From assembly GCA_032718475.1 (NCBI GenBank), contig JAUCBJ010001381.1, positions 27,577 to 91,576 on the forward strand: a stretch of DNA of 64,000 nt, written 5' to 3'. This DNA comes from Nemertoderma westbladi (taxonomy: Eukaryota > Animalia > Xenacoelomorpha). This document shows positions 4,273 through 27,878 of the stretch, one piece after another (the stretch's first letter is position 1; every line of letters starts with the position of its first letter). The notes below the pieces were generated by a model, which ran no database searches, had not been told where the DNA came from, and saw only the letters and a list, made by a program, of their open reading frames with translations. The translations under genes were made by a program, and so were the position numbers.

Positions 4273-4307
4273 ATGGCCGCAATACAAACTAGTATATAAA
4301 TGAGAAA

Positions 4308-4390
4308 TTACGGGGTTTTGCCAGGTTATTGTTTCTGATTTAAGGGGTTTTACAGGTTGTTATTTCTGATTTAAGGGGTTTTGCCAGGTG
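4308..4390 (+). repeat. About 31-bp tandem repeat (TTAAGGGGTTTTGCCAGGTTATTGTTTCTGAT), about 2.7 copies
   Basis: Directly visible within the middle TIR element. Confidence 0.7.
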
Positions 4391-5365: not shown

Positions 5366-8129
5366 ATGAAAACACTTGCAAAGTTTTATTTTTCACAAAA
5401 GGTGTACACCTCATGTGGACAAGATGATTCTAGCATAAGTAAGCAAGAACGAAAGAGGTTGCAATCTCTGAAACATCCAAACATAGAGGATCAATTTATA
5501 AGTTACGACCCATCAGATCCTTTCAATATGGATTTTTATGAATACGATAACATTGCAATGACAATGGAAAAACGTACTGAGAAAGAAACTATAACAGAAT
5601 CAACTTACAATGTAAATGTAAAACTGGGTCATAAAGTGTGTAATGAGGATCATAATGGTCGAACACACAATGATGATTTCTTCTACTATCGAATCCAGTT
5701 ACAATCGGAGAAAGATAAATTTGGAAGAAATTTTGGTACTCGGCAATCTCATGAAGAAATAACCGTAATACCAATAGGTTTCAAGGTGAAAAAACCAAAT
5801 GTGGAAGTTCTCGCTTATAACGAGAGAAATAAGAAGGAAAAAATAAAATTTGTGTTTTATTTTAATAAAAATGAAAAAACAGTTAATAACGCGTACGATC
5901 TAATAGTTAACGACCTAATGGGCGTGACGGATGCTGCAGAGTGGCAATTCTCAAATAAGAGTTCGCAAGGAGAATACAATAAAGTTGGTATGAAAAATTC
6001 TGATAATCTTAGGCCTAATGATACCGAGTTTAAGTTTAAGCTTGAGTGCATGTACAAAGGAGAACAGCCAAAAAATTACTCACGACTTATGAAACTATTT
6101 AAAGGAACTTCTTGCATTCCGTACAAAGATGTAGAACATCACAAAGTTCCCATTCCTAATCTCCTCAAGGCTGCAGTAATCTGGGTCGAAACGTTTGGCT
6201 TCGGTAATAATGACCTGTATGCGTATGGAGATCCTAACATGATTGATTGTTTAAAAGTAAAAGACAAGTTTCTCGAAAACCTTGAAAAAAAGAACAAACT
6301 TCCCCTTGGAAATAAAGCAGTCGATGCACGTTATCGACACATGGTTTGTAACATAGTAGTTGGATGTTTTCGAGATCACATTAGTGATGGTCACAAATGC
6401 TGTAATGCAGATGGCATTATTGATCTGACAAACATGACGTGCAAATTATTCATGAATCACATTTGTAAAGCAATTAATCGTAATTCGTATGCCTCTGAAA
6501 TAAGTGATGACAACTCTAACAAGTTGAGGGATCACATCAGAATGCGGTTTCCTGAGTTTGAGGGGTGCCACTTATCTACTGATACCCGGCCAATGCATTT
6601 GATAACACAGCATACACGATCCCACGCAGTTGCGAGATCAAGGCAAGACCCTGGGAGATTTGGAAGGGCCAATTTTAATGGTCTCCCTCCAGTACACTGC
6701 CTGGACACAAGAACAGCGCCAGAAAGTAGATTGGAAAGGGTCAATTCTAATGAAGTCCATCAACGACAATACGTGGGCGTGAGAACAGCGCCAGAGAGGA
6801 TATTGGAAAGGGTAAATTCTAATGAAGTCCATCAACGACAATACGTGGGCGTGAGAACAGCGCCAGAGAGGATATTGGAAAGGGTAAATTCTAATGAAGT
6901 CCATCAACGACAATATGTGGATGCGAGAACAGTACCAGAGAAGATATTGGAAAGGGTCAATTCTAATGAAGTCCATCAACGACAATATGTGGATGCGAGA
7001 ACAGTACCAGAGAAGATATTGGAAAGGGTCAATTCTAATGATGAAGTCCATCAACGACAATACGTGGGCGTGAGAACAGCGCCAGAGAGGATATTGGAAA
7101 GGGTCAATTCTAATGAAGTCCATCAACGACAATACATGGATGCGAGAACAGTACCAGAGAAGATATTGGAAAGGGTCAATTCTAATGAAGTCCATCAACG
7201 ACAATACGTGGGCGCAAGAACAGCGCCAGAAAGGATATTGGAAAGGGTCAATTCTAATGATGAAGTCCATCAACAACAATACGTGGGCGTGAGAACAGCG
7301 CCAGAGAGGATATTGGAAAGGGTCAATTCTAATGAAGTCCATCAGCAACAATATGTGGATGCGAGAACAGTACCAGAGAAGATATTGGAAAGGGTCAATT
7401 CTAATGATGAAGTCCATCAACAACAATACGTGGGCGTGAGAACAGCGCCAGAGAGGATATTGGAAAGGGTCAATTCTAATAAAGTCCATCAGCAACAATA
7501 TGTGGATGCGAGAACAGTACCAGAGAAGATATTGGAAAGGATCAATTCTAATGAAGTCCATCAACGACAATACGTGGGCGCAAGAACAGCGCCAGAAAGG
7601 ATATTGGAAAGGGTCAATTCTAATGATGAAGTCCATCAACAACAATATGTGGGCAGTGAGAGCAGCGCCAGAGAGGATATTGGAAAGGGTAAATTCTAAT
7701 GAAGTCCTTCAGCGACAATACATGGACGCGAGAACAGTACCAGAGAAGATATTGGAAAGGGTCAATTCTAATGAAATTCCTCCAGGATTCTTTGATACGA
7801 ATATACTATATCAAGCCAATAACAACCGAGCTAGACTTTACGAGATATTTATATCACAAAGGGCAAATGATTTCAACTACAATCCTAATATGTCTGACAT
7901 CACTTTTGAACAGTGGTTACGAGAAACAAATTTCAGAGAGGTTATACGATCAGAAACGAATCAGCAGGGAGTCAGCAGGGTAATGGTCAATTCTGACAAA
8001 GCCCATGGAGGTGAAGAGATTGAGTATAGCGTCATTGATCCAGTTAGCACAGCGCTATTGCACAATGACATGAAGGAATCGGATGTGGATGACTCGGGTA
8101 CTGTTGAATATGCAAGCTTATCACTTTAG
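5366..8129 (+). CDS. Uncharacterised protein (about 920 aa if corrected): ~450-aa non-repetitive N-terminus, ~15 tandem 24/25-aa repeats and an acidic tail; one frameshift at ~7655
   Basis: ORF 5366-7699 (777 aa) continues in ORF 7500-8129 after one extra A (GTGGGCAGTGAG vs consensus GTGGGCGTGAG). There are no TE motifs. It may be a large exon rather than a complete gene. Confidence 0.6.
6708..7778 (+). repeat. Coding tandem repeat, 72/75-bp units (RTAPERILERVNSN(D)EVHQRQYVGV)
   Basis: About 15 units; the length variants differ by an in-frame GAT. Confidence 0.95.
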
Positions 8130-9467: not shown

Positions 9468-9624
9468 CTGTACTGGCACCAAACAGCTTTAGGCCTATTG
9501 AAAACTTATTTTAATATATAAATATTGGTGTGGCAAAGACAGAGATCAACTACTATGGCGTCTCTAAAGGGTCAAAATATAAATGAATAAAAACCTCTAT
9601 GAAACAAGAAAAATGCCTCCATAT

Positions 9625-9933
9625 TTGTTACTGCAGTAATAAATAATTGTTACTGCAGTAGAAATTATTAATTACTGCAGTAATAAATAAAAATTATTTT
9701 TTACTGCAGTATGAATTATTTGTTACTGCAGTAAAAAAAACTTTTATTTATTACTGCAGTAATAAATAATTGTTACTGCAGTAATAAATAATTGTTACTG
9801 CAGTAATAAATATTTGTTACTGCAGTAACAAATAATTATTGCTGCAGTAATAAATATTTGCTACTGCAGTAATAAATATTTGCTACTGCAGTAGCAAATA
9901 AATGTTACTGCAGTAATAAATAATTGTTACTGC
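9625..9933. repeat. About 22-bp minisatellite with palindromic core TTACTGCAGTAA, cut mid-unit by the BEL LTR
   Basis: About 12 units; the last ends ...TTGTTACTGC|TGTCCGG. Confidence 0.9.
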
Positions 9934-10193
9934 TGTCCGGAATATTTCGGAATCCCGGACATCGAAAATATCACAGACCGAAAGAAAACATGTATTTCTT
10001 GCTTGCTAGTATATTACTCAGTTCGTATATATATCAGTATATGATAGGATAACGTACATACATAAATGTCAGATAACACAAAACTAAAACAGTAAAAACT
10101 AAAAGCACGGTGTACTCTACTGCCGTACTGCCTGACTGAACTACCAACTGAAAGCACCCAGCTGATCATCCTAAATACAGTATATTTGGGACA
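9934..10193 (-). repeat. BEL LTR 1 (3' LTR of copy A)
   Basis: 260 bp, TG...CA termini. Confidence 0.95.
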
Positions 10194-10318
10194 CACTGGG
10201 CCCCAGAGAAAATACATATTTGCACAACAGATACTTAGCTTCATGGATAAGACAAAACTAGTAAGACACAAATATGTTTACATAGAAAATTGATTAAAAA
10301 TATCTTTCAAATATAAAT

Positions 10319-11584
10319 TCAATCGCTTTCACCTTCACTTTCACTTTCATAGACTTGCATAATTTTACGTCTTGCGTCAATAGCAGCTTTACGTTTCGGT
10401 CGAACTACATCAGCTGTTTCAACCGTAGTTTCGGTCGAAGTCAATGTGGGTGTAGGGTCATGAACATCAGGGCACTCCAAGGGATAAAGACGCTTGATTG
10501 GCCTTACACAACTACCATTCTTAGTCCTTAATGTCACTGATCGTACATGACCATCTATACCTTTATGTAACTCGATGACCTTTCCTAATGACCACTGCAT
10601 ACGAGGTATCTTGTCACCAATCAATACAACATCGCCGATATTTGGAGATCATATAATTTCCTTGGCTGTACCCCGATGAAACTCGCGTAATGTTGACAAA
10701 TAATCCTTATTCCACAGACACCATGCTCGATTAAGAATGTTCTCAAGATATTGATGGCGTTCGATTAGCCCCTCTCGAATTCCGAACGGAGGATCATTAT
10801 TCAGATTGTTACTCTCTTCAATATCGACAGGATATCCTGAGATGCGATGTCCGATGAGTAGCATAGAGGGTGTTAAGGGTTCTACTTCTCCAACGTTAGA
10901 ACTAACATAGGTTAATGGCCGGTCGTTCATCATTGCTTCAACCTCTGTTACAATGTTCTGCAGAGCCTCGAAATCGATAATGCGACGTCCTAATGCCCTC
11001 TTCAAAATACTTTTCCCTATTCCGATCAATCGCTCGTAGAGCCCTCCAAACCAAGGAGAATACGGAGGGATGAATTCCCAAGAACAACGTTGTGATAAGA
11101 GGTAACTCTGAACTGATGAGTCACCTTGTAAGTCTCGTAAATCTAGGTCAGCACCAATGAATGTGGTTGAATTGTCACTTATAAAACGCGACGGACATCC
11201 TCTACGCGCTATAAATCTACGTAGCGCACATAATAAAGTTTTGACTGAATTGTCCCGTACGACTTCCCAATGGACAGCCCTAGATGAAGCGCACGTAAAA
11301 AGAACAAGGTATGCCTTAACAATTTCGTTGCATTCTTCCACTTGTAAAGCGCCTGTATAATCAACACCAGTTGTGTTGAAGGGCCGAGACACCTGGACAC
11401 GATAGGCAGGTAAGGGAGGAATGGGAACTGATGAATAAGACGGTCCTTGAACACGAATGCAATTTTTACAACTACGGACTAAGGAGTTTACTCTCTGTCT
11501 GATACGAGGAATCCACCAGTTTTGTCTAATATGCATAATAGTCTGAGAAGCTCCCACATGCATGTGACGATAATGGAAATCCAA
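10319..11584 (-). pseudogene. BEL integrase (DDE core plus C-terminal domain), interrupted by an in-frame TGA at 10649
   Basis: GVDYTG, FISDNSTTF, PWFGGLYERLI, RPLT, WSLGKVIELHKGIDGHVRSV. Confidence 0.9.
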
Positions 11585-14500
11585 GATGATAAGTCGGTAA
11601 TCCTATGTTTAGAAGGCAACAAAATTGGAAATTTCGTGTTCCAATTTAAATCAGCGTAATCAATGCGACCCTTACTACGAATTATATTAGTGTCATCTAA
11701 GAAAAGTTGTAGTTGTTTTACAAGCACTGGTGTTCGTCTAAAACCCATGGGCTTATTTCCCTTTGTCGTAAGGAAATCCAAGACTTCAGTGAAAGTCTCA
11801 CATTGGATTCTATGTACCCAATAAGTTTCGGCTGCCTTAATGTCATTAACACCGAGAACAGGAGCAATATTACAATAAGAGCTACTGTGACATTTGAGAT
11901 TACGGACGAATCTCAGAATCCAGGCAGATACTCGTAATAAACGACTGTAGTCGCTATAATCGGCTGGGTTTAAGACATCGGTAATAACATTCCTTTCTCC
12001 ATCTCCAAGAATGCTGGTAATCTTATCGTTGTCGTTCTTCTCAGCATCAATAAGGTTACTAGCAACAGAAGCTATTACCACGGAATTTGGCCAACTGGTA
12101 CAATCTGGTAACCAATCTGGGCCATATTTCCACAAATCAGAAATAATAAACTTGGAATAATTGATACCCCTTGTTAAAAGATCACTTGGATTGTCATTCG
12201 TATCCACATGTTTGAATGTAGTAGTAGGTAGTAATTCTCGAATTTCTGAAACTCGATTACGTACATACGGTTTATCCAGTTTGATTGACTGTAACCAACA
12301 TAGAGCAATAGTGCTGTCAGACCATAGGAAAAGACAACCGCATAAAAATTCCTTGTAATAAATATTAGAAACGTAAGTTAATAGTCTAGCTCCAACTAAA
12401 ATGGCAGTCAATTCCAACTGCGGCAAAGTGAGGCTGCCACTGGCTAAACGTTCAACACTCTTAACCGGAGTAACACGTGCCTTGGCTGTTACTAAAGCAG
12501 AACCATTGCTGTTAACCATGTAAACAACGGCACCATAAGCCTTAGTTGATGCATCACAAAAGCAATGAAAATCAGTTTGGTCTGATAGTGGCAACATTCT
12601 AGGCATGGAGAAGGCGGATAATAGATTCAAATCACAAACTAATTTTGACCAATCACGAGCCAGATTACTAGGAATGACGTCATCCCATTTCAAATTTAAT
12701 TTCCAGAGTTCTTGAATTAGCATTTTAGAACGAATAGTAACCGGAACTAACCACCCATAAGGATCATATATCTTTGGAGCAGAACTAACAACATGGCGTT
12801 TTGTCAGTTTGTCAATGTCAGGAACGTCAATTTTGCGGGTTGGAAAACCTAAGGTGTCTGCATTAATATTCCAATTAATACCAAAAATCAAGGCGTCAGG
12901 TTTGTCAGTTGTAGGACCGTCACCATTCAGTCTAATAATGTTACTCAATTTCGGTGAATTTGTGAACCATTGTCGCAAAGGAAACCCACCTTCCCTTAAA
13001 ATAGCGCGACTTTGAATGTAAAAATCAATAAGTCGATCTTCGGATACCTCTGTATCCTGTAAATTGTCTACATACATATTTTGCAAAATTATTTTTGCAA
13101 TAGGAGCATTACACTGTTTAAGGTGATGTTGAATAGTTGAGTTCAACAAAAATTGGCTACAGTTTGCACCAAATAAAACCACTTTAAATCTATAAGTCAA
13201 AATTGGACTATTAAGATCAAATGGATCTTTAGGCCAAAGAAATCTAGTGACGTCACGGTCTATTTCGGCTAACACTATTTGAAAATAAGCCTTTTCAATA
13301 TCAGAAATAGCACAGAAATTATGAATACGAAAACGTAACAATAAATCATACAGTAGTTGATTTGTAGGCGGACCAGTTAACAAACAATCATTTAAACTGA
13401 CATTGTTTTTACCGCTACCAGAAGAACAATCATACACTATACGTAAAGGAGTAGTGGCGGATTGCGGTTTTTCTACACCGTGGTGTGGTATATAGTGCAC
13501 CAGATTACCGCTACGAGTGATTCCATTGGATACAAAAATATCATCAACAGGAACTAATTCAATGAAATTTCTAGTTAACTGCTCATTAACTAAGTTATTG
13601 TAACAAGTTAGAAAGTCTGGGTTTCTACGTAATTTATTTAATGTAGATTCTAACCGTTTTCTACATAAACCGTAGTTTAGTGATAAATGGGCGTGGTTTT
13701 GTAACCATGGCAACCTTGTAATGTACATACCATCACTATATTCAATGCTATTATTAAATTCAAGAATAGCTGTTTCGTGATCAAAATTGGTAGCATTCAT
13801 ATTAATACCAATTTCATCTAAACTCCACAAACGTTCTAAACATACAGAAACGTCATTACATTGGAGACATAATTCACTTGGTTTAACATTGCAATATTCA
13901 AAATTATGATTTACACTAATGCCAATGTGCATAACAGAAATAACGTTATTTTGTATATGTGTATCAGAAATCTTACCAGAATGTACATTTCCTACTATGA
14001 TATTACCCAAATTGGATGGTAATACATTTACGTCATTTATAACATTATCATTGTAAACAAAATTGAAATACTGATCACTACCAATAAGTAAACAAATATT
14101 GGAAATGGAATCCCCACGGCAAGGATCCGCTAAACTAAATCCTTGTAATGTAAACCGATCGACGATCGCGGAATGGCCCGGAGTCGACAAACGAGGCAAT
14201 CTATCAACTAAAATAGCGTTTGTTTCCACGAAACCATCTGAGGTTTCAACGTTAAATGAAACTACATCGTACCATTGACACAATCCGTCACTATTAATCC
14301 CATCGATACCGATCCAAATCCGTTCCACAATAGGAAGATGTAATGATTCAGCAGCTTGGCGGAGCAATAGAGTACGTTGCGAGCCTTGATCGAAAAGCGC
14401 CCGCAACTTATAGGTACGACGATTATTATCGCTAATAACCGGAACTACGGCAGTCGGTAGTAGCGTTGAATGGTTATCGGTAACCAGAGTAGAAAAGGAG

Positions 14501-15558
14501 ACGGAGGCAACACTTCCCTTTGAACCACTAGATGCAGTCGGTTGTCGGTTTGTGTCTCTAGAGCTAGATGCTTGGGATTGTAATAACGTGGAACCGTGAA
14601 GCACTGTATGATGGCGACTGTTACAAACGAAACAATTTTGAGTCGAACACTTCGATAAGTTCGAATGTTCCGGTTTTAAACAGTTGGTACACAGCTTTAA
14701 TTCATTGAAGCATTGAAGCATTGTAATTCATTGTGCTTTCTTATCAGGCGTTTTATATATATCGCAGAAACGAACGCTATGCTCACCCTTACACAGGAAG
14801 CATTTTATCGGCCTTATAGGTCTATTAGTGAACGTCTTCGATGATGGAGATGAGACGGAGAACGAACCGGTGGTTCCGCCTCTGACGTCTTCCGGAGAAA
14901 ACCTCTTCTTGTCGACCCAACCTCCCTTTCCCTTCGAAGAAATTGTTGGCTGGGATTCTAGCGAAGTTAACTGCTCGATCTCCTCTTGAAGAGCTTTACG
15001 TAGTTCGTCAAGGGTCCAATATGAAGTTCGAGCCGCACGATTAATGTTATCTCGGATTTTGGCGGGAAGTTTCCTCAACAAAATTTCAGAATAGACATAT
15101 CCCGCCTCTTCCACATTACCACCGAGATTCCTAATGCCACGTATCTGAGCCTCGTACATAGCTCGGAACGCAGCAAGTTCCCGAGATGACGCACCCGGGG
15201 ACTCCAAATCTAGAAGTAGATGTAAACGCGACCGCATAATTAATTGCGGTTTACCGAACGATTCGCGTAGTAACTGGACAGCTTCCTCGTAATCTTCGTT
15301 CGATCTTTGGAAGTTGTCGACTAGTCTGGCAGCATCTCCGCTGAGCTGCCCTTCTAGGTAGGAAAACTTCGTCGCCCCAGCTAAATCAGAACAGCTATGA
15401 ACGGCGTCGTTAAATCTATCCCAAAAGTTAGTCCAGTCGACTGGATTGCCACTGAAAACCGGAAGCTTTAATACCGGAAGCTTCTGAGTTTTATGAGGGT
15501 TTGTAGAGGACGCACCTGATGTATTATGATTGTGAGGATGTTGTGGTTGGCCCATATC
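11488..15558 (-). pseudogene. BEL gag C-terminus, protease, RT and RNase H (copy A), with a stop at 14728 and a frameshift near 11585
   Basis: LPVFSGNPVDWTNFWDRF, three Cys/His knuckles, LFDQGSQRT, YIPHHGV, SDIEKAY, MYVDN, FCDAS, LELTA, WSDS. Confidence 0.92.
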
Positions 15559-16054
15559 ATCGTGTGATAAGTTCTTCTTGCCCTCCCCCGGGTTATATCT
15601 GCACCGACCACAATTGATGCTAAACTCCAATATGATATGATAAGAATAACAAACATACATATAATAATTAAGCAACAATAATTTCATTAATCACAGACTT
15701 ATGTCACCATTGTAAATACCGATAGGCTACCAACTAATTAGCATTAGGCCTACATAAATAATTATTGCAGTAATCGGGTATACACTATTCCCCTTACATC
15801 CTCCCTCACAGGCAAAAGATCGGCTCGATCTTTACATTTACAAATAAAATTTACTTTCAGTTTAAAATTACACAACTGATTAAACAACTGATAACAATGG
15901 TAATATGAATCAATCATAAAACTATACTCTTTCATCTAACAAAATTTCTTAACTTTAAATTAATAAACTTTCATTTTATACCATAAACAAATAATCAACT
16001 TACTACATACTGTATAATGTAATGTCAACAATAATCAACTTGTTTCCTTTATTT

Positions 16055-16273
16055 TTATTTACAATCACTACAGTACCATGTTTCTTCCGCAGGTTCATCA
16101 ATAATACCGACACAATGAAAATGGAACCAATCAAAACAACGGTCACAACTTATCATTGATGGACCTTCTATAAACCATGGAATGCCACAAATCGGGCAAG
16201 GGTAAATTTCTGATTCATCTACACCGTGATCGGTTATGGGTTTATGAGTACGATAGTTTAACACTGCGACCAC
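16055..16273 (-). CDS. PHD finger (C4HC3, TAF3-like), overlapping the pol stop in the +1 frame
   Basis: YPCPICG..PSMISCDRCFDWFHFHCVGI..ETWYCSDCK. There is no ATG ahead of the finger (GTG right after a TGA), so it is probably reached from pol. Confidence 0.85.
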   Translation of the reverse strand: MVAVLNYRTHKPITDHGVDESEIYPCPICGIPWFIEGPSMISCDRCFDWFHFHCVGIIDEPAEETWYCSDCK

Positions 16274-19200
16274 TCACAGGAATATTGGTAGGCAATGACG
16301 GTAAGTACGGTCCTACTCTAAGACGCACATCATCCCTACTAATAACTCTAGTTTTATTATCACATAAACCATTTATATGCGTAATAGTAACATTCTTATT
16401 ATCAATGTGGGTAACACGAAAAGGACCCACAAACTTTGGTGCCAATTTACGATCAGTACCAGGATTAATGGAATGATTTTTGGCCCAAACAATATCACCC
16501 TCTGATATGACCTGATCCTTAACTTTTCGGTCAAAATTACGTTTCTGAGTAATTTGTGATTTCGCAATACACTTTCTAGCCAAATGCCATACTGATGACA
16601 TTTGCTCTCCAATTAATTTTGCTCTTAAATCTGGTGTAAATTTTTCACCTTCAGGTAAAATAAAATTATCTGCTGGGCGCCTGGCCTCAAAACCATGCAA
16701 ACAATAAAAAGGTGTTTGCCCAGTGGACGAATGAACAGTTAAATTGTATGCAAATTGCGCAATGGGTAATACTACATCCCAATCCCTTGATTTATGGTCA
16801 GTTAGAGAACGCAAAAGTCTAGTCATAGTTTGTATCGTCCGCTCAGCCAGCCCATCTGACTGTGGATGGTAAGGTACCGTAAAAACCTTCCTTGTTAAAC
16901 AACGTTGCGCAATTTCCTCAACCAGCTTTGATCTGAAATTCGGACCCTGGTCGGATAATAATATTTCAGGCGCTCCATACCGTAGCACAATCCGGTGCAT
17001 AAACGCATCCGCTGTCGACTTAGCGCTGCCATCACACAAAGGAACAAACTCTGCATACTTTGTTAGATAGTCTATAAAGATAGCAATGTAGGTATTACAA
17101 TTATCGGTGGGTACAAAAGCCCCCATTAAGTCGACCCCAACCCTTTCAAAGGGTCTCTCCACTTCTATTGATTCCAATTCATGTCTTGTTCGTAGGTTAC
17201 GAGTAGTAGCACACTTGGAACAAGACTTATAATGGTTATTCACCTCACTATACATACCAGGCCAGTAATAAAATTTCAGTAGCGATTCATACACTTTAGA
17301 AGTTGCAAAATGACCAGACGAGTTATCACCATGGTATGCATGTAAAATATCACCTCGTAAGGATTCTGGAACTACAGTTAACAGTCGAATTTTATGACTA
17401 TCTTTAGACTTAAATCTATAATAAAGAACTCCGTTACTAAGTTCATAATTAGTTGCCTCCAAAACAATTCTTCTAGCTGCTTTCAATTGTATTGGTAAAG
17501 TACCATCTTCTAAATAATTGATTATACACTTGAGTTTATTATCATTTCTTTGTTTTACAGATATATCTACTTTGAATGAATGAACATCAACTTCATCTTC
17601 AATAACAATCTCTGATACCTCAACTGAAGACACAACTTTATCCAATGGACAGTTACCATTTTCCTTCTCCGAACAACACAAAGGGACTAGTCGACTCAAT
17701 GCATCTGCATCTCTATTTTTTATTCCAGGTCTATATCGAATTTCACAGTTGAATTGACTCAACCAAAGTGCCCATCGAGCTAAACGACCCTCCAACTGTT
17801 TGGCAGTTAATAAACTGGTAAGTGCAGAATGATCGGTATAAACTGTAAACTTTCTCCCATATAGGTAAGGTCGAAAATGTTTAATTGCCCACACAACTCC
17901 AAGACATTCAAGATCACTTATAGAATAATTATGTTCACTCCCTTGTAGAGTACGAGAAGCATAAGCCACAGGTTGTACACGACTACTATCATTAACTTGA
18001 GCTAACACAGCTCCCAACCCACTCCGAGAAGCATCAGTATGTAACAGAAAGTCGGCATTAAAATCCGCATGTGCAAGGCATGGTGGATTTGATAAAGCTT
18101 GTTTAATATCGTCCATCGCAGCTTGTTGCTCCTCTCCCCAAGTAAACCGTATGTTATCCTTCATCAACGATGTCAGTGCTTTCATTCTGTTTGCACAATG
18201 TGGTATATAGATTCTATAATAGGATGCCAAACCAGTAAACATCCTAATCTCCTTCTTACTTGTTAAAGGTTTAATATTCAACAGCTGACTAACTTTCTCT
18301 GGATCTGGGTATCGTCCATTTACATCAATAACATGACCCAAATATACTATACTCGGCATTGAAAATTTACATTTTGAAATCTTCAACTTAATTCCAACTT
18401 TACCCAAAGCCTCCAAGATTATATCTAATCTCTGTATGTGCTCCAATGCACTAAATGCGAACACCAATATATCATCCAGGTAAACTAAACATATGATATA
18501 TTGCAAACCAGAAAGAGTCATATCCATCATTCTTTGAAATGTAGGTGGTGCATTACATAGCCCATATGGCATGCGTTTAAACTGATACAATCCCAAATGT
18601 GTACCAAATGCAGTTTTACAACGATCCTCCGACGCAATCTCAACAGTCCAATAAGCTGAATATGTATCTAATAAAGAACAATATAAACGTTTTGTGTCTG
18701 TAGGTTGTGGACCAATACAGTCAATTAATTCTTGAATAGATGGCAAAGGATATGCATCTTTATGCGTCACTGCATTTAGTGGTCGAAAATCAATGCAGAA
18801 CCTCAGCTCACCCCCTTTTTTCAAGGCAAAGACTGGACGAAATTGCCAAGGACTCTCTGAATGCTCTATGACATCCTTCTCTAGCATAGATTTTACATGT
18901 TCTTCAACTACAGGCCACTGCGACCTTGGAACCCTATGTCCCCGAACCTTGATTGGACTAGCATCTCCCGTATTTATGTGATGTTGCACCCCTTTCACCA
19001 ATCCCAAATCTAACTCATGTTGAGCAAAAACATCGCGGTGTTTATAAAGAACATCAGTTAATTTATCTTTCATTGACTCATCACTGTACTCATCCTCCTC
19101 AATATGTAATCGAGATATAAACTCACCTCTAGACCAGGTTTTACGAGACTTCTCTCCCACTGGCATAGACATTATATTTTCATCATCTTCTGTAACAGAA

Positions 19201-21296
19201 TAATCAGCTGTATTTTTAATACTTAGGCAATCAACTGACCCCAACTTGGTATGTTTATTAATCCTTATAGGAAATTCATTCAGATTCATTACCTGTACGG
19301 GAATACGCTGCAGATCATCTGGATATGAAATTGCAGTTGCAGCACAAACTCCATGTCGTTTATTTACATTCACACCTTGAGTAAATAATAATGGTTGTTT
19401 ATTCGAGATAGGCAATGGTGAACTGAGCTCCCCTGATATCATCAAACGACTTCGTGGTGGTATAGTTACTATCTCGTTACACCACACAGCAGACACTGAT
19501 CCATCACCCATTGGTCTCGATATTGTCTCTGTGGCAACGTCTTGCCCATTAACTATTAATACCATTTCTCCGCAAAAATTCCATTTCAATCCGCACTCAA
19601 ATGCTCCTAATATATCCAGACCAATTAGAAATTCATGACTCGGCTTCCTATTAACTTGTAATTCTACCAAATGTTCTACTCCACCCAAACACATTTTTAT
19701 TTTTACACAACCCACAATATCTAGTGGATGCCCAGAAGCTGACTTTGTTTCAAAATATGGTTTCCTCAACTCAAACTTCATTGAACTGCATGATTGTATT
19801 TCTTCCAATACATCACTAGAAATTATAGATATTTCGCTCCCAGTATCAACAAAAGCTCTCTTAGGAATACCCTCCAAACTCGAAAAAACAAAGCAACGTC
19901 TTAAGCATTGACCCTTCAATTGTAAATTAAATGATTTCTTCTGCTCAATTGTAACTGCAGATGAAGTAATAGGCTCTAGTTTGGATTTAACATCTACCAT
20001 TTCATCATCCCTATAATCATCTTGGGTAAGATTTAATTTATCGAAGCCAACTTGAACTAAACTACAACCAGTTTCTTTAGAGGTAGATTCACGACAATTA
20101 TCATTAGATTTGCTACTATGCTTCAATTTTTCCTTAAAACAGTCCATCTTTCGGTGCCCCAATTTTCCACAACCATAACACTTTACTGGGTTTCTACAAT
20201 CTTTGGCCATATGCCCAATTCTACTACAATTAAAACAAGTAATCTTCGGTTTTGTTGAACTCGAGTCAGAATAATTACTTGAGATTGGTTTAGAATTGCC
20301 CCTAATTGCATTTGTCTCCACTTCATTTGTGTTAACAATTGATTTGACAACTGTATTTGAAAGTTCCATATCTAAAGCATAAGCTTTTCGAAATAACTCT
20401 TTCCAGGTTGATTGCACATTCAATCGTCGCCATCCTCGAAGTCTTCCACTCAACTCACAACGAACATTAGATGCAAAGAAATCCTGCAGTATAGACTCTT
20501 CTCCATTCCCATCGAACTGTTCCCTACGACGGCGAACAGCCATCATGAATCGCTCTACGAATTCCGGCAAAGACTCATTGATCCCTTGTTTACATGTTGC
20601 TATATTAGAAGCTGTATTCTCCTTATGATCAGATAATAAATCAATAACAGCTTTCTTCAATGACAGATAATCACTTCTGTCATCCTCTTCTAATGTTTCC
20701 TCCAACATCGTGTGTAAACGACCAACTTTAGCCAGTAAACGATCCCTACGTTCATCCTGTGGAACCCTAGAGTCATCCATAATTCGATCATAATAATCAT
20801 CAAACCATGTTTGTATAGACATCTTCTTTGGGTCGAAAGGTGGTATGGTCTCTGATAACTTCGTGCAGCGATGTATCTGGTGAGCACCTGTTCCTCTACT
20901 ACCCCGGCCACTATCATCACCATGGTCACGGCGACCACTATTTGGTTCATTTGCAGTGTCTCTTTCATTCGATAGCATATCCTGAAGTTCTCTAAAACGA
21001 CTATCTTCAGTCACCTTATGACTCTCCATTAAATTGGAAAAGAACTCATTTTGTTGCATAGCCATTGCTCTAGAATGTTCCTGCATAAATTGGTATTGTC
21101 TATCCATCATTGCTGTCGTCTGTTGTTGCATCAACTCGGCTTGATTCAACATCATTTGTTTAAACATCTCCATCATTCCCCATGTTGATTCACCCTTACC
21201 AGAAGCGACACTACCGTCATCTTCTTTGTTAAGTTGCTGACCATGACCTTGACTTTGACCCTGGCCCTTCTTGGTCGGGTCGTCCTTCTTCGACAT
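16242..21296 (-). CDS. Gypsy Gag-Pol polyprotein (single ORF; open frame from 21383, first ATG at 21296)
   Basis: Two CCHC knuckles, FVDTGS protease, LRFCIDFRPLN and YLDD RT, TDAS RNase H, integrase GVDLMG/SDQG/PYHPQSDGLAER, GPF motif. Confidence 0.96.
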   Translation of the reverse strand: MSKKDDPTKKGQGQSQGHGQQLNKEDDGSVASGKGESTWGMMEMFKQMMLNQAELMQQQTTAMMDRQYQFMQEHSRAMAMQQNEFFSNLMESHKVTEDSRFRELQDMLSNERDTANEPNSGRRDHGDDSGRGSRGTGAHQIHRCTKLSETIPPFDPKKMSIQTWFDDYYDRIMDDSRVPQDERRDRLLAKVGRLHTMLEETLEEDDRSDYLSLKKAVIDLLSDHKENTASNIATCKQGINESLPEFVERFMMAVRRRREQFDGNGEESILQDFFASNVRCELSGRLRGWRRLNVQSTWKELFRKAYALDMELSNTVVKSIVNTNEVETNAIRGNSKPISSNYSDSSSTKPKITCFNCSRIGHMAKDCRNPVKCYGCGKLGHRKMDCFKEKLKHSSKSNDNCRESTSKETGCSLVQVGFDKLNLTQDDYRDDEMVDVKSKLEPITSSAVTIEQKKSFNLQLKGQCLRRCFVFSSLEGIPKRAFVDTGSEISIISSDVLEEIQSCSSMKFELRKPYFETKSASGHPLDIVGCVKIKMCLGGVEHLVELQVNRKPSHEFLIGLDILGAFECGLKWNFCGEMVLIVNGQDVATETISRPMGDGSVSAVWCNEIVTIPPRSRLMISGELSSPLPISNKQPLLFTQGVNVNKRHGVCAATAISYPDDLQRIPVQVMNLNEFPIRINKHTKLGSVDCLSIKNTADYSVTEDDENIMSMPVGEKSRKTWSRGEFISRLHIEEDEYSDESMKDKLTDVLYKHRDVFAQHELDLGLVKGVQHHINTGDASPIKVRGHRVPRSQWPVVEEHVKSMLEKDVIEHSESPWQFRPVFALKKGGELRFCIDFRPLNAVTHKDAYPLPSIQELIDCIGPQPTDTKRLYCSLLDTYSAYWTVEIASEDRCKTAFGTHLGLYQFKRMPYGLCNAPPTFQRMMDMTLSGLQYIICLVYLDDILVFAFSALEHIQRLDIILEALGKVGIKLKISKCKFSMPSIVYLGHVIDVNGRYPDPEKVSQLLNIKPLTSKKEIRMFTGLASYYRIYIPHCANRMKALTSLMKDNIRFTWGEEQQAAMDDIKQALSNPPCLAHADFNADFLLHTDASRSGLGAVLAQVNDSSRVQPVAYASRTLQGSEHNYSISDLECLGVVWAIKHFRPYLYGRKFTVYTDHSALTSLLTAKQLEGRLARWALWLSQFNCEIRYRPGIKNRDADALSRLVPLCCSEKENGNCPLDKVVSSVEVSEIVIEDEVDVHSFKVDISVKQRNDNKLKCIINYLEDGTLPIQLKAARRIVLEATNYELSNGVLYYRFKSKDSHKIRLLTVVPESLRGDILHAYHGDNSSGHFATSKVYESLLKFYYWPGMYSEVNNHYKSCSKCATTRNLRTRHELESIEVERPFERVGVDLMGAFVPTDNCNTYIAIFIDYLTKYAEFVPLCDGSAKSTADAFMHRIVLRYGAPEILLSDQGPNFRSKLVEEIAQRCLTRKVFTVPYHPQSDGLAERTIQTMTRLLRSLTDHKSRDWDVVLPIAQFAYNLTVHSSTGQTPFYCLHGFEARRPADNFILPEGEKFTPDLRAKLIGEQMSSVWHLARKCIAKSQITQKRNFDRKVKDQVISEGDIVWAKNHSINPGTDRKLAPKFVGPFRVTHIDNKNVTITHINGLCDNKTRVISRDDVRLRVGPYLPSLPTNIPVSGRSVKLSYS

Positions 21297-21726
21297 TTGT
21301 TTGGCAGCTTCAATATCCTTGTGATATTGACGACGTACGTCTAGTGGGTTTTGACGAGTTATCCTCTTCTCCAGTTTAAACAAAAAAACAACAACAACTG
21401 AAATGGCTGGCGATCATAAGCCTGTGAAACTCCAATCCATTAAATTAAACGCTGTTCTCCAGTGGATGCAGTTGGTGGGACCTCCATGTGATAAGTTCTT
21501 CTTGCCCTCCCCCGGGTTATATCTGCACCGACCACAATTGATGCTAAACTCCAATATGATATGATAAGAATAACAAACATACATATAATAATTAAGCAAC
21601 AATAATTTCATTAATCACAGACTTATGTCACCATTGTAAATACCGATAGGCTACCAACTAATTAGCATTAGGCCTACATAAATAATTATTGCAGTAATCG
21701 GGTATACACTATTCCCCTTACAATCG

Positions 21727-22100
21727 AATTGACCATGATAATCACCAGAATTGAAACGATTGTTGTCCTCTCTAATTCGTATGAACTTCTCACAACGTCG
21801 TATTGTGGAAGAAATTCGCATATCGTCCTTGGAATTCGTTTCTATATCCGCAGCAATGACGTCAGCCTCGACAATATGAGAATATATTTCCTCGTTGACA
21901 TCGTTCAACTTCGATTGTTGAACTCGAAGAGCCTCGATAACATCCCGGATCGTGTCGACATCCGGATCGGTTACAAACTCCCTAGTGGCTGCGTCAACAT
22001 AGATTAAACCATCGAGTTGAGTCATTAGTCGAGACGCTACCGACTTGTGACCTCGTCGCTTATTTTTCAGGTGTCGTAAGGTGTCAGCATCCATGTCCAT
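21727..22100 (-). pseudogene. BEL gag N-terminus (copy A), separated from the rest by the Gypsy insertion
   Basis: MDMDADTLRHLKNKRRGHKS...; near-identical to copy B at 27885-28259. Confidence 0.9.
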
Positions 22101-22296
22101 CACGCTATTACGTTGCCGTTAAATCGGGATCCGTTGACCCAATACGCAAGCCTGATTGCTGACTACTGGACTAGCAGACAAGTCTGCTACTGCTAGTGCT
22201 GCGGTAAAACGATTAGGCTCTACCGGTATTACCGGTAAGAGTTATTAAATTGTCAGGACGACACTTTCCGGGCGAGTCCCGGGTCACCGCACCAAA

Positions 22297-22564
22297 TGTC
22301 CGGAATATTTCGGAATCCCGGACATCGAAAATATCACAGACCTAAAGAAAACATGTATTTCTTGCTTGCTAGTATATTACTCAGTTCGTATATATATCAG
22401 TATATGATAGGATAACGTACATACATAAACTGATAAATGTCAGATAACACAAAACTAAAACAGTAAAAACTAAAAGCACGGTGTACTCTACTGCCGTACT
22501 GCCTGACTGAACTACCAACTGAAAGCACCCAGCTGATCATCCTAAATACAGTATATTTGGGACA
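22297..22564 (-). repeat. BEL LTR 2, shared (5' LTR of A, 3' LTR of B)
   Basis: PBS on one side and the copy B 3' end on the other; 268 bp with an 8-bp insertion relative to LTR 1. Confidence 0.95.
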
Positions 22565-23762
22565 CACTGGGCCCCAGAGAAAATACATATTTGCACAACA
22601 GATACTTAGCTTCATGGATAAGACAAAACTAGTAAGACACAAATGTTTACATAGAAATTTGATTAAAAATATCTTTCAAATATAAATTCAATCGCTTTCA
22701 CCTTCACTTTCACTTTCATAGACTTGCATAATTTTACGTCTTGCGTCAATAGCAGCTTTACGTTTCGGTCGAACTACATCAGCTGTTTCAACAGTAGTTT
22801 CGGTCGAAGTCAATGTGGGTGTAGGGTCATGAACATCAGGGCACTCCAAGGGATAAAGACGCTTGATTGGCCTTACACAACTACCATTCTTAGTCCTTAA
22901 TGTCACTGATCGTACATGACCATCTATACCTTTATGTAACTCGATGACCTTTCCTAATGACCACTGCATACGAGGTATCTTGTCACCAATCAATACAACA
23001 TCGCCGATATTTGGAGATCATATAATTTCCTTGGCTGTACCCCGATGAAACTCGCGTAATGTTGACAAATAATCCTTATTCCACAGACACCATGCTCGAT
23101 TAAGAATGTTCTCAAGATATTGATGGCGTTCGATTAGCCCCTCTCGAATTCCGAACGGAGGATCATTATTCAGATTGTTACTCTCTTCAATATCGACAGG
23201 ATATCCTGAGATGCGATGTCCGATGAGTAGCATAGAGGGTGTTAAGGGTTCTACTTCTCCAACGTTAGAACTAACATAGGTTAATGGCCGGTCGTTCATC
23301 ATTGCTTCAACCTCTGTTACAATGTTCTGCAGAGCCTCGAAATCGATAATGCGACGTCCTAATGCCCTCTTCAAAATACTTTTCCTTATTCCGATCAATC
23401 GCTCGTAGAGCCCTCCAAACCAAGGAGAATACGGAGGGATGAATTCCCAAGAACAACGTTGTGATAAGAGGTAACTCTGAACTGATGAGTCACCTTGTAA
23501 GTCTCGTAAATCTAGGTCAGCACCAATGAATGTGGTTGAATTGTCACTTATAAAACGCGACGGACATCCTCTACGCGCTATAAATCTACGTAGCGCACAT
23601 AAGAAAGTTTTGACTGAATTGTCCCGTACGACTTCCCAATGGACAGCCCTAGATAAGCGCACGTAAAAAGAACAAGGTATGCCTTAACAATTTCGTTGCA
23701 TTCTTCCACTTGTAAAGCGCCTGTATAATCAACACCAGTTGTGTTGAAGGGCCGAGACACCT

Positions 23763-24959
23763 TGTAAAAGCCTTTGCTGAATTGCCCCGTTATTTTTATT
23801 ATTTTTACATTAAAATACTCTGTAGTTGATTTAATAGGTGTAAGAGACCGTATTATTGCTGTATCGGTGTTTTTTAGAGGATCTAAGAGCTATTTCCTCC
23901 GTATGTGTACTGTGGAAGGCATAGTTGATGATTCTATGGCAATTCCGTGACGCAAAAGGGGATAGATACTCTTGAACAGTAGTTACTATGACGACGGTTA
24001 ACAGCTGATATTCATACGTGTCGATTTTCTTTGTTCTACGGCATCTCTTAGTTCAGTCAGCCAATCAGAGCATTTTTATGGCTCTTGTACAGAAATTTCC
24101 TAGAAATCACGCAATGCATTATGGGCAGTGTTTACATTCTGTCCTGAGCCAGGAAAGAACGGCTTTGGAATATTTTGTGCTTTTCTGCTTTTAGCCTAAC
24201 ACTAGTAGGCTTAATTATAAGGACATATATCCGTTATCTTAATATCTCACTGGTTATCTCACTGCATTTATCATATCAACCAACCAAACATACATATCTT
24301 ACTTAACATTACTGCTTTGCTGTCGGTTATTCATTATATTTGTTGATGAATTATTATATTTGGAATAACGATAAATAACCCCGAAAACCCAATATTCTTG
24401 ATATACAGAAGGTAAGAGAGACAGGTTACATATAACGATTGTGACTTATGTTAAAGTGGTTTGAAGTGAATCTAATGTTATTTGATAGACCCTACATGAG
24501 TCGGTCTGTGTTCCTTTTATATGTGACTAAAATCAGTGAAGATCGGCAGATTAGTGTGCAGTATTGTGCAGCGTTGTGTATGAGCGAGACTGATAACGAA
24601 GCATTTCCTAAAGAATGCGCCATATATGTGAATTGTAACTAAGCCATATCGTTGTGAGTAGTTTAAGTCATAACTCTGTTTATATAGATAGAGCGCCACG
24701 TCCTAAAGGAACTGTTAATATTCCCCGAAGGTGAATAATATTGTCAGAGATTATATAATACTGTCCGTCGAATAATACATTAGGCTTACATAGCAATAAG
24801 ATTAAGCTGTCGAAGTCAATCTCCCGGGTATATCCAGCGGGTGAATGATCGCGCACAGATTGGTTTCAACTAGTGTAGTGAATCAAATACTTGTCAGAGG
24901 CTAAAAGCGATTTATTATCTAGAAGACATCCTAATTTGGCGGGTTAAACTGCCAAAGGT
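23763..24959. other. About 1.2-kb foreign sequence replacing ~1.2 kb of BEL pol
   Basis: Homology to copy A stops after GAGACACCT (A: ~11394) and resumes at TAATAGATTCAAATC (A: ~12620). Confidence 0.85.
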
Positions 24960-27878
24960 TAATAGATTCAAATCACAAACTAATTTTGACCAATCACGAG
25001 CCAGATTACTAGGAATGACGTCATCCCATTTCAAATTTAATTTCCAGAGTTCTTGAATTAGCATTTTAGAACGAATAGTAACCGGAACTAACCACCCATA
25101 GGGATCATATATCTTTGGAGCAGAACTAACAACATGGCGTTTTGTCAGTTTGTCAATGTCAGGAACGTCAATTTTGCGGGTTGGAAAACCTAAGGTGTCT
25201 GCATTAATATTCCAATTAATACCAAAAATCAAGGTGTCAGGTTTGTCAGTTGTAGGACCGTCACCATTCAGTCTAATAATGTTACTCAATTTCGGTGAAT
25301 TTGTGAACCATTGTCGCAAAGGAAACCCACCTTCCCTTAAAATAGCGCGACTTTGAATGTAAAAATCAATAAGTCGATCTTCGGATACCTCTGTATCCTG
25401 TAAATTGTCTACATACATATTTTGCAAAATTATTTTTGCAATAGGAGCATTACACTGTTTAAGGTGATGTTGAATAGTTGAGTTCAACAAAAATTGGCTG
25501 CAGTTTGCACCAAATAAAACCACTTTAAATCTATAAGTCAAAATTGGACTATTAAGATCAAATGGATCTTTAGGCCAAAGAAATCTAGTGACGTCACGGT
25601 CTATTTCGGCTAACCCTATTTGAAAATAAGCCTTTTCAATATCAGAAATAGCACAGAAATTATGAATACGAAAACGTAACAATAAATCATACAGTAGTTG
25701 ATTTGTAGGCGGACCAGTTAACAAACAATCATTTAAACTGACATGGTTTTTACCGCTACCAGAAGAACAATCATACACTATACGTAAAGGAGTAGTGGCG
25801 GATTGCGGTTTTTCTACACCGTGGTGTGGTATATAGTGCACCAGATTACCGCTACGAGTGATTCCATTGGATACAAAAATATCATCAACAGGAACTAATT
25901 CAATAAAATTTCTAGTTAACTGCTCATTAACTAAGTTATTGTAACAAGTTAGAAAGTCTGGGTTTCTACGTAATTTATTTAATGTAGATTCTAACCGTTT
26001 TCTACATAAACCGTAGTTTAGTGATAAATGGGCGTGGTTTTGTAACCATGGCAACCTTGTAATGTACATACCATCACTATATTCAATGCTATTATTAAAT
26101 TCAAGAATAGCGGTTTCGTGATCAAAATTGGTAGCATTCATATTAATACCTATTTCATCTAAACTCCACAAACGTTCTAAACATACAGAAACGTCATTAC
26201 ATTGGAGACATAATTCACTTGGTTTAACATTGCAATATTCAAAATTATGATTTACACTAATGCCAATGTGCATAACAGAAATAACGTTATTTTGTATACG
26301 TGTATCAGAAATCTTACCAGAATGTACATTTCCTACTATGATATTACCCAAATTGGATGGTAATACATTTACGTCATTTATAACATTATCATTGTAAACA
26401 AAATTGAAATACTGATCACTACCAATAAGTAAACAAATATTGGAAATGGAATCCCCACGGCAAGGATCCGCTAAACTAAATCCTTGTAATGTAAACCGAT
26501 CGACGATCGCGGAACGGCCCGGAGTCGACAAACGAGGCAATCTATCAACTAAAATAGCGTTTGTTTCCACGAAACCATCTGAGGTTTCAACGTTAAATGA
26601 AACTACATCGTACCATTGACACAATCCGTCACTATTAATCCCATCGATACCGATCCAAATCCGTTCCACAATAGGAAGATGTAATGATTCAGCAGCTTGG
26701 CGGAGCAATAGAGTACGTTGCGAGCCTTGATCGAAAAGCGCCCGCAACTTATAGGTACGACGATTATTATCGCTAATAACCGGAACTACGGCAGTCGGTA
26801 GTAGCGTTGAATGGTTATCGGTAACCAGAGTAGAAAAGGAGACGGAGGCAACACTTCCCTTTGAACCACTAGATGCAGTCGGTTGTCGGTTTGTGTCTCT
26901 AGAGCTAGATGCTTGGGATTGTAATAACGTGGAACCGTGAAGCACTGTATGATGGCGACTGTTACAAACGAAACAATTTTGAGTCGAACACTTCGATAAG
27001 TTCGAATGTTCCGGTTTTAAACAGTTGGTACACAGCTTTAATTCATTGACGCGCTGTGCTTTCTTATCAGGCGTTTTATATATATCGCAGAAACGAACGC
27101 TATGCTCACCCTTACACAGGAAGCATTTTATCGGCCTTATAGGTCTATTAGTGAACGTCTTCGATGATGGAGATGAGACGGAGAACGAACCGGCGGTTCC
27201 GCCTCTGACGTCTTCTGGAGAAAACCTCTTCTTGTCGACCCAACCTCCCTTTCCCTTCGAAGAAATTGTTGGCTGGGATTCTAGCGAAGTTAACTGCTCG
27301 ATCTCCTCTTGAAGAGCTTTACGTAGTTCGTCAAGGGTCCAATATGAAGTTCGAGCCGCACGATTAATGTTATCTCGGATTTTGGCGGGAAGTTTCCTCA
27401 ACAAAATTTCAGAATATACATATCCCGCCTCTTCCACATTACCACCGAGATTCCTAATGCCACGTATCTGAGCCTCGTACATAGCTCGGAACGCAGCAAG
27501 TTCCCGAGATGACGCACCCGGGGACTCCAAATCTAGAAGTAGATGTAAATGCGACCGCATAATTAATTGCGGTTTACCGAACGATTCGCGTAGTAACTGG
27601 ACAGCTTCCTCGTAATCTTCGTTCGATCTTTGGAAGTTGTCGACTAGTCTGGCAGCATCTCCGCTGAGCTGCCCTTCTAGGTAGGAAAACTTTGTCGCCC
27701 CAGCTAAATCAGAACGGCTATGAACGGCGTCGTTAAATCTATCCCAAAAGTTAGTCCAGTCGACTGGATTGCCACTGAAAACCGGAAGCTTTAATACCGG
27801 AAGCTTCTGAGTTTTATGAGGGTTTGTAGAGGACGCACCTGATGTATTATGATTGTGAGGATGTTGTGGTTCGCCCAT
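24915..27878 (-). pseudogene. BEL gag-protease-RT (copy B), truncated at the foreign insert
   Basis: 987-aa ORF with the same motifs as copy A. Confidence 0.9.

What the first reader, a model, noticed from the sequence alone, without database searches (positions are those of the whole stretch)
16055..16300. Gypsy integrase with a TAF3-like PHD finger where chromoviruses carry a chromodomain
Seen: a complete C4HC3 PHD finger lies inside the Gypsy, between the integrase GPF tail and the PPT/3' LTR. It keeps the aromatic-cage pattern (Y before Cys1, M in SMISC, W in DWFH). Established: TAF3/ING-type PHD fingers use this cage to read H3K4me3, and chromoviruses use a C-terminal chromodomain to steer integration. 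Inference: this lineage may use a histone-mark-reading PHD to target integration to H3K4me3 chromatin. I cannot tell from here whether this architecture is already catalogued.
Basis: partly seen in the sequence, partly recalled or inferred. Interest (0 to 1): 0.85.

Follow-up and report, generated by a model that had tools for sequence, protein, structure and literature searches.

The report
Gypsy integrase PHD finger, often lost
A young jumping gene of an animal belongs to a family whose insertion enzyme ends in a well-kept PHD finger that likely grips the histone mark of active promoters and would help choose where new copies land, but in this copy the finger has slipped out of frame and other copies have lost it.

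Summary
The PHD finger is real (PF00628 E=8.6e-9; best solved relative TAF3 by sequence and fold). It lies between the integrase GPF motif and the PPT of a very young Ty3/Gypsy element (identical 236-nt LTRs, 4-nt TSD) nested in a BEL/Pao gag. Contigs from two studies are 20 nt longer there, which puts the PHD in the Pol frame. A distant relative (P0205, 46% identical integrase) is a natural one-frame integrase-PHD protein with a 52% identical finger. One sample also holds the window-type form and PHD-deleted forms. H3K4me3 binding and targeting are untested; the one insertion seen lies in a window of repeats only. PHD fingers on Gypsy-type elements are published (Chlamydomonas Gypsy-7a_cRei, Ginger1, cnidarian retrotransposons), and this scan noted the same architecture in other genomes (e1-9099856, e1-8075470). 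Verdict: a new variant of a known kind; the added value is the natural PHD-plus/PHD-minus variation within one family.

The parts
21723..21726 (.). left copy of the 4-nt target-site duplication
   Evidence: sequence; empty-site joint 15558->21723 with 4 letters fitting both sides in X1, X2 and X3
21487..21722 (-). 5' LTR, 236 nt, TG...CA
   Evidence: 100% identical to 15563-15798; ends read
21474..21486 (-). primer-binding site directly after the 5' LTR (TGG...; likeness to the tRNA-Gln 3' end is recalled, not tested)
16242..21413 (-). single gag-pol frame, 1723 codons stop to stop (first ATG at codon 40): two CCHC knuckles, protease (DTG), RT (YLDD), RNase H, integrase
16863..17372 (-). integrase H2C2 zinc-binding domain and catalytic core
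   Evidence: PF17921 aa 1348-1405 and PF00665 aa 1420-1517
16419..16427 (-). GPF motif of the integrase tail
   Evidence: aa 1663
16254..16255 (-). break in this copy: 20 nt shorter than the main contigs of X1 and X2, which leaves the PHD outside the Pol frame; the short form also stands in X3
   Evidence: (tables 4 and 8)
16055..16273 (-). PHD-coding frame (72 codons); C4HC3 core at 16061-16198; cage positions Y24, W33/F34, M40, W49
15799..15807 (-). polypurine tract
15563..15798 (-). 3' LTR, 236 nt
15559..15562 (.). right copy of the 4-nt target-site duplication
9934..22564 (-). host BEL/Pao element (LTRs near 9934-10193 and 22297-22564); the Gypsy sits in its gag, about 575 nt downstream of its 5' LTR
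   Evidence: (PF03564, PF05380)

Best explanation
This is a recently inserted Ty3/Gypsy retrotransposon whose longer sister copies carry a PHD finger in the integrase frame; the finger likely binds methylated H3K4 tails and would tether the integration complex to promoter-type nucleosomes, while this copy has the finger out of frame and would make a PHD-less integrase. Shown: element anatomy, PHD fold, the longer form in two studies, a one-frame integrase-PHD protein in a distant relative, and short and PHD-deleted forms in one sample. Inferred: protease releases an integrase that keeps the PHD; the PHD binds two zinc ions and an H3K4me2/3 tail; this biases integration, as chromodomains do for chromoviruses and as the RAG2 PHD does for RAG (RAG2 listed as an H3K4me3 reader in PMC3241642). 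PHD-less copies would move either with a less selective integrase of their own or with protein from intact copies.
For: PF00628 E=8.6e-9. TAF3 is the best hit by sequence and by fold: model pLDDT 83, the first four Foldseek hits are TAF3 PHD, rmsd 1.3-2.0 A. Cage Tyr, Met, Trp and the Asp after Cys3 are kept, matching the H3K4me3-reader description in PMC3241642. The only X1 contig across the site and the main X2 contig are 20 nt longer; frame offset 1 plus 20 nt is a multiple of three, and by eye the listed extra letters hold no stop in the Pol frame. P0205 has H2C2, rve and PHD in one frame; PHD identity 27/52, integrase 209/451; window plus P0205 at 100/100, and with two more integrase-PHD proteins (P0106, P0180) and PHD-less P0121 at 94/93. 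17 of 27 listed single-letter differences among family copies are silent against 21% expected (P=3.5e-6). An ESM Atlas cluster of 80 members has PHD 99% and rve 94% (score 0.88, query P0106, lead only).
Against: No binding or insertion data. The one insertion seen lies in a window where the ORFs of 150 codons or more that I scanned gave retroelement domains or nothing, amid satellites: not promoter-like, although it is about 0.6 kb behind a BEL LTR promoter. PHD-deleted joints in X2 and X3, the window-type form in X3 and a 1-nt insertion inside the finger in X2 show the finger is often lost. The cage Met is Val in P0205, and TAF3 M882A binds over 100-fold more weakly (PMC8246079). An acidic stretch before Cys1 (DESE) is a mark of unmodified-H3K4 readers. 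The five-row group has bootstrap 94, below the starred level, and the quick tree did not find it.
Confidence: 0.5

Rival explanations
1. The finger reads H3 tails but steers copies away from active promoters: it binds unmodified or lowly methylated H3K4, or its binding to H3K4me3 holds back integration there, so copies pile up in repeats.
For: The only insertion seen is in a repeat-only window, inside another retrotransposon. Acidic stretch before Cys1; Met replaced in P0205. Chlamydomonas Gypsy-7a_cRei, which has a PHD, inserts between genes 2.6 times more often than chance.
Against: The invariant cage Trp and an aromatic residue before Cys1 are kept in window and P0205; H3K4me0 readers lack the cage. 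This copy is PHD-less, and selection after insertion also favours repeats.
Confidence: 0.2
2. The PHD was useful over long times but is now dispensable in this family; it adds little to site choice and is being lost.
For: Three independent PHD-damaging forms in one sample. The window copy has identical LTRs and an unbroken gag-pol up to the break, so a PHD-less form sits in a very recent insertion.
Against: X3 also holds deletions elsewhere in pol (147, 544 and 3530 nt), so damage is not special to the PHD. X1 shows only the long form with no listed difference in the finger. Broken copies can be moved in trans or be damaged after insertion.
Confidence: 0.17
3. The finger has a non-histone job, such as binding a host or element protein, nucleic acid, or the element's own chromatin after insertion.
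For: Some PHD fingers bind non-histone partners (abstract listing of PMC3241642). PHD fingers sit at varied places in transposons.
Against: Position at the integrase tail, where relatives carry chromo, PWWP or SH3 domains, and the kept cage residues fit a chromatin tether.
Confidence: 0.1
4. The PHD is a chance host fragment or an assembly artefact, not part of the element's proteins.
For: Out of frame and without a start codon in the window. No PF00628 among the 43 hits or in the 15 loci.
Against: In-frame length in contigs of two studies; one-frame relative P0205 with the same linker start and finger; the short form also stands in X3, so it is no assembly slip.
Confidence: 0.03

Closest known systems
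Chromoviruses (Ty3/Gypsy with a chromodomain after the integrase; MAGGY, Tf1), as summarised in PMC3601003, PMC6673714 and bioRxiv 2021.11.30.470311 (passages read)
   Same: Histone-reader module at the integrase C-terminus, after the GPY/F region; same proposed tethering logic.
   Different: No chromodomain is found. The integrase falls outside the 7-row chromodomain clade (rows unnamed, picked by Pfam label).
Gypsy-7a_cRei of Chlamydomonas reinhardtii (bioRxiv 2022.06.16.496473 / PMC9940879; passages and figure legend read, figure not seen)
   Same: Gypsy Gag-Pol with a PHD finger; authors propose targeted insertion.
   Different: Green alga, 15.4 kb. The legend lists PHD between RNase H and integrase, not after it. 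Cage type not given in the passages read.
Cnidarian retrotransposon fusions with PYGO1/2-type PHD (bioRxiv 2021.11.30.470311; passages read, Supplementary Table 6 not seen)
   Same: Animal retrotransposons fused to an H3K4me-reading PHD.
   Different: The passages name no Gypsy integrase-tail position. The finger here is closest to TAF3, not PYGO. The unseen table may list this architecture.
Ginger1-9_HM DNA transposon (PMC2836005; passages read)
   Same: Gypsy-like integrase with GPY/F followed by C-terminal add-ons that include a PHD.
   Different: DNA transposon with TIRs, no RT, and a Ulp1 protease. The element here has LTRs, RT, RNase H and no Ulp1.
Gypsy elements with a cytosine methyltransferase (KnitGypsy-Dnmt3, PMC5890265, passages read); P0026 and P0035 carry PF00145 plus PF00628
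   Same: Gypsy integrase followed by a PHD in P0026 and P0035.
   Different: Separate clade (100/100). Their PHD has G or Y where the cage Trp lies. No methyltransferase here.
TAF3 / ING / BPTF / PHF2 H3K4me3-reading PHD fingers
   Same: C4HC3 fold and cage positions; 45-48% identity to TAF3 PHD in the top four fold hits.
   Different: Binding not measured. Best-hit likeness does not show descent from TAF3. The Met is Val in P0205.

Membership tests
Ty3/Gypsy LTR retrotransposon | Two LTRs (TG...CA), PBS, PPT, target-site duplication | tested here: met
Ty3/Gypsy LTR retrotransposon | Order gag, protease, RT, RNase H, integrase; GPY/F motif | tested here: met
Chromovirus | Chromodomain after the integrase | tested here: not met
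   no PF00385 in either frame scanned
Chromovirus | Placement in the chromovirus clade | tested here: inconclusive
   outside the 7-row chromodomain clade in an integrase tree, but no named references and no RT tree
Errantivirus (env-bearing Gypsy) | env ORF between pol and the 3' LTR | tested here: not met
   about 250 nt between the PHD stop and the PPT, no ORF of 60 codons there
PHD finger (PF00628) | C4HC3 ligands and PHD fold | tested here: met
H3K4me3-reading PHD subset (TAF3/ING/BPTF) | Invariant cage Trp, further aromatic or Met cage residues, acidic Arg2 pocket | tested here: met
   Y24, M40, W49, D44 align with TAF3; criteria from PMC3241642; Met is Val in P0205
H3K4me3-reading PHD subset (TAF3/ING/BPTF) | Measured binding to H3K4me3 | not testable with these tools
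   needs a peptide-binding assay
Integrase-PHD fusion | PHD in the Pol frame in this copy | tested here: not met
   stop at 16242-16244; PHD in the +1 frame
Integrase-PHD fusion | PHD in the Pol frame in sister copies and relatives | tested here: met
   X1 and X2 contigs; P0205, P0106, P0180
Reader-targeted retrotransposon (works like a chromovirus) | Insertion bias that depends on the reader domain | not testable with these tools
   no genome held; one insertion site only
Ginger1 DNA transposon | TIRs, no RT, OTU or Ulp1 tail | tested here: not met
   LTRs and RT present, no Ulp1/OTU hit
Gypsy-DNMT3 | Cytosine methyltransferase in Pol | tested here: not met
   no PF00145

The most novel reading that the evidence does not exclude
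An animal Ty3/Gypsy lineage uses a TAF3-type PHD finger on its integrase to read H3K4me3 and aim new copies at active promoters: a promoter-seeking counterpart of chromoviruses and a retroelement parallel to the RAG2 PHD. PHD-plus and PHD-minus copies coexist in one family and offer a natural test of that aiming.
Probability: 0.3. Interest if true: 0.75.

Novelty: new variant of a known kind. Interest (0 to 1): 0.45.

Why it matters
How most animal LTR retrotransposons choose insertion sites is not known. PHD fingers in transposons have been proposed to guide insertion or remodel chromatin (passages), but no test of that turned up in my 10 literature searches. A small, well-folded finger with an H3K4me3-type cage at the chromodomain position can be assayed by itself, and a family with natural PHD-plus and PHD-minus copies allows site comparisons. 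If true, it would add a direct histone-mark route to promoter-proximal insertion, with consequences for gene regulation and mutation load in the host. If the finger is dispensable, the case still shows how quickly reader modules are swapped or lost at the integrase tail (chromo, PHD, PWWP and SH3 all occur among relatives).

Tried and rejected
No genome is held, so copy number, other insertion sites and host PHD genes could not be examined. Single-sequence fold of the 72 aa was poor (pLDDT 55) and was replaced by a 7-sequence fold. PHD query against longer proteins: 2 candidates, no hit (weak evidence). Viral contigs: no locus for the integrase or P0205. Metagenome contigs: 15 distant Gypsy loci, 0 with a PHD; only 3 of the 15 hold 1 kb or more after the integrase. 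Profile search with A2: 43 hits, none with PF00628. Whole-length search: 2 of 53 hits carry PF00628, both with a DNA methylase. No RNA holder listed. Programmed frameshifting as the normal route was rejected: no slippery heptamer in the overlap and the longer form needs none. Assembly error was rejected: the short form stands in X3 (61-nt contig, no differences), though that sample may be the window's source. The quick tree left window+P0205 apart from P0106+P0180; holding the four together gave a tree 26.7 log-likelihood units better, p-AU 0.74; the careful tree grouped them with P0121 at 94/93. The first tree run timed out. Contig depths were not used as copy numbers. No complex prediction was run: no histone tail or methyl-lysine could be supplied. 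The journal version of the chromatin-evolution paper and its supplements were not available. PMC3286476, PMC3118150 and bioRxiv 2026.05.21.726589 gave nothing on this point. The scan's own index found no look-alike by sequence for the PHD or P0205 and no note nearby.

Full report
What is at the coordinates. The stop-to-stop frame 16055-16273 on the minus strand encodes 72 residues with a complete C4HC3 pattern. Pfam gives PF00628 at E=8.6e-9, above the curated cut-off. Among solved structures the best sequence hits are TAF3 PHD fingers (E=1.2e-8), followed by PHF2, BPTF, YNG2 and ING1. A fold from a 7-sequence alignment has mean pLDDT 83, and its first four Foldseek hits are TAF3 PHD structures at 1.3-2.0 A; a fold without alignment was poor. 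Y24, M40 and W49 align with the TAF3 Trp before Cys1, the Met and the cage Trp, and the Asp after Cys3 is kept. This fits the description of H3K4me3 readers in PMC3241642 (passages). The finger is real and more than chance.

The element. It is a Ty3/Gypsy retrotransposon on the minus strand: LTRs at 21487-21722 and 15563-15798, 236 nt and 100% identical; a PBS after the 5' LTR and a PPT before the 3' LTR; and one gag-pol frame of 1723 codons with two CCHC knuckles, protease, RT, RNase H, integrase H2C2 and core, and a GPF motif. There is no env frame. It sits in the gag of a BEL/Pao element about 575 nt behind that element's 5' LTR. Contigs of all three laid runs show the empty site, with 4 letters fitting both sides, which is the TSD. 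BEL/Pao elements are confined to animals (PMC3601003, passage), so the host is likely an animal. The rest of the window is satellites and retroelements: 24 frames of 150 codons or more, of which I scanned 12 plus the PHD frame against Pfam, and several tandem arrays.

In this copy the PHD is not fused to the integrase. Gag-Pol stops at 16242-16244; the PHD frame is shifted by +1, overlaps by 32 nt, has no ATG before Cys1, and no slippery heptamer lies in the overlap. Three public runs from two studies hold the element (X2 and X3 are one sample). The only X1 contig across the site (1266 nt) and the main X2 contig (188 nt) are 20 nt longer at 16254-16255. The offset of 1 plus 20 is a multiple of three, and by eye the listed extra letters hold no stop in the Pol frame, so those copies read from integrase into the PHD. 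The window's short form stands in X3 as a 61-nt contig without differences; that sample may be the window's source, so this shows a real variant but not independent spread. The full-length fusion of this family was not folded, which leaves the linker geometry open.

Variation in the family. One search lists, besides the long and short forms, joints that remove the PHD (16004->16229 in X2, 16004->16256 in X3) and a 1-nt insertion at 16101 inside the finger in X2. Contig depths in X3 are 527 upstream, 408 over the PHD, 93 for the short form and 132 for the PHD-less joint; the tool warns these are not copy numbers. X3 also has deletions elsewhere in pol (147, 544 and 3530 nt), so damage is not special to the finger. 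Of the 40 single-letter differences shown (32 more were not shown) I classed 27, dropping 11 outside the frames and 2 where a different element overlaps. 17 of 27 are silent against 21% expected (P=3.5e-6); three silent ones lie before the first ATG. Only 1 lies in the PHD, and it is silent. The family is under purifying selection; the PHD alone has too few changes to judge.

Relatives. The closest integrase in the 1.84-billion-protein search is P0120 (50% identity). Its cluster-mate P0205 is a natural one-frame protein with H2C2, rve and PHD. It matches the window's integrase at 209/451 and the PHD at 27/52 (19/44 without the eight zinc ligands). It keeps an aromatic residue before Cys1, a Trp-Phe pair in the first loop and the cage Trp, but has Val where the window has Met. 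In TAF3, M882A weakens binding over 100-fold (PMC8246079, passages), so the cage is not uniform in the lineage. Among the 203 proteins match a C4HC3 pattern. P0106 and P0180 have a PHD with the cage Trp after the integrase. For the tree, 254 of 257 proteins had an integrase hit and 211 covered the core; I used 53 rows (window, top 30 by score, all PHD rows, up to 22 chromodomain rows by my own profile from 10 Pfam-labelled seeds, three extras), dropping one long branch and two identical rows. Window plus P0205 group at 100/100, P0106 plus P0180 at 99/92, and these four with PHD-less P0121 at 94/93. A 7-row chromodomain clade (100/99) and a clade holding the two methylase-bearing elements (100/100) lie apart, and P0196, whose PHD scores below the Pfam cut-off, is unplaced. 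A quicker tree missed the grouping, and the AU test does not reject it (p=0.74). The ESM Atlas lists, for the tail of P0106, an 80-member cluster with PHD 99%, rve 94%, commonest phylum Mollusca (score 0.88, a lead only). Searches that found no more members.

How it likely works. Shown: anatomy, fold, in-frame length in sister copies, deep conservation, and loss in some copies. Inferred: Gag-Pol is cut by its protease into an integrase that keeps the PHD; the finger binds H3 tails methylated at K4 and tethers the integration complex to promoter-type nucleosomes, as chromodomains do with other marks (confidence 0.5 for this chain; about 0.9 for the fusion, 0.6 for H3K4me binding, 0.3 for a promoter bias). 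The single site seen does not support promoter targeting: it is inside a repeat in a repeat-rich window, though shortly behind a BEL LTR promoter, and this copy is PHD-less. Rivals are avoidance of active chromatin (0.2), present-day dispensability (0.17), a non-histone role (0.1) and chance capture (0.03).

What is known. Ten literature searches were run. PMC6673714 states that many retrotransposons encode a PHD and draws the chromovirus analogy (passages). Chlamydomonas Gypsy-7a_cRei has a PHD in Gag-Pol and an intergenic bias (passages). Ginger1-9_HM joins a Gypsy-like integrase to Ulp1 and PHD (passages). bioRxiv 2021.11.30.470311 reports 823 transposon-chromatin fusions, mostly PHD and Chromo, including cnidarian retrotransposons with PYGO-type PHD (passages; Supplementary Table 6 not seen, and it may bear on novelty). 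PMC8557442 lists PHD in CR1, Rehavkus and Chlamys elements (passages). PMC5890265 describes KnitGypsy-Dnmt3 with no PHD in its main text. PMC5408684 notes that Mag lacks GPY/F (passage), which argues against Mag here. I found no paper in these searches that describes an animal Gypsy with a TAF3-type PHD at the integrase tail or tests such a finger; Repbase and subscription journals were not searched. Earlier notes of this scan report the same architecture in shellfish and sea urchin genomes; they are unchecked and not used as evidence.

Verdict. Observation partly confirmed; interpretation partly supported. It works like a chromovirus in layout but is not one by the chromodomain test. New variant of a known kind, interest 0.45. 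Most novel reading: a promoter-seeking, H3K4me3-reading Gypsy integrase with natural PHD-plus and PHD-minus copies; probability 0.3, interest 0.75 if true.

Noticed in passing
protein P0138, residues 1075-1154: A Gypsy Pol (RT, RNase H, integrase) ends in a PWWP domain (PF00855, E=8e-14), a built-in counterpart of the host PWWP tether LEDGF used by HIV integrase (recalled).
   Followed up: partly
protein P0181, residues 1331-1383; P0019; P0016: Other add-ons in Gypsy Pol proteins: a canonical SH3 after the integrase; PF00856 with a chromodomain in P0019 and PF02023 in P0016 (precomputed Pfam accessions).
   Followed up: no
window 9934-28724: Two BEL/Pao units in tandem sharing a middle LTR (three LTRs, about 99% identical internal parts); the first has a stop between gag and pol near 14728, the second breaks elsewhere in pol.
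   Followed up: partly
window 21461-21495 and 17289-17321: Contigs in all three runs match only the LTR end plus PBS, or only the integrase zinc-binding motif, then diverge (loose ends): likely a second Gypsy family in this genome with the same primer site.
   Followed up: no
window 21722, run X3: A loose end gives the flank of another insertion of this family; it holds a 10-nt word also found in the 22-nt tandem repeat at 9621-9933 next to the BEL element. May be chance.
   Followed up: no
window 31987-36735: A second, distant Gypsy gag-pol frame (1582 codons) lying between blocks of the 36-nt satellite (29412-31648, 37103-47841); no PHD or chromodomain hit.
   Followed up: partly
window 5336-7699: 787-codon open frame that runs into a 72-nt tandem repeat (14.6 copies); only a Pfam hit with no passing stretch. 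Unexplained.
   Followed up: no
window 1235-4951: Nested inverted repeats with two opposed 19-nt minisatellite arrays (2626-3122, 3758-4221), a foldback-like layout.
   Followed up: no
window 56259-58430 and 61035-63450: Two non-LTR-type RT frames (PF00078; PF20049 in the second).
   Followed up: no
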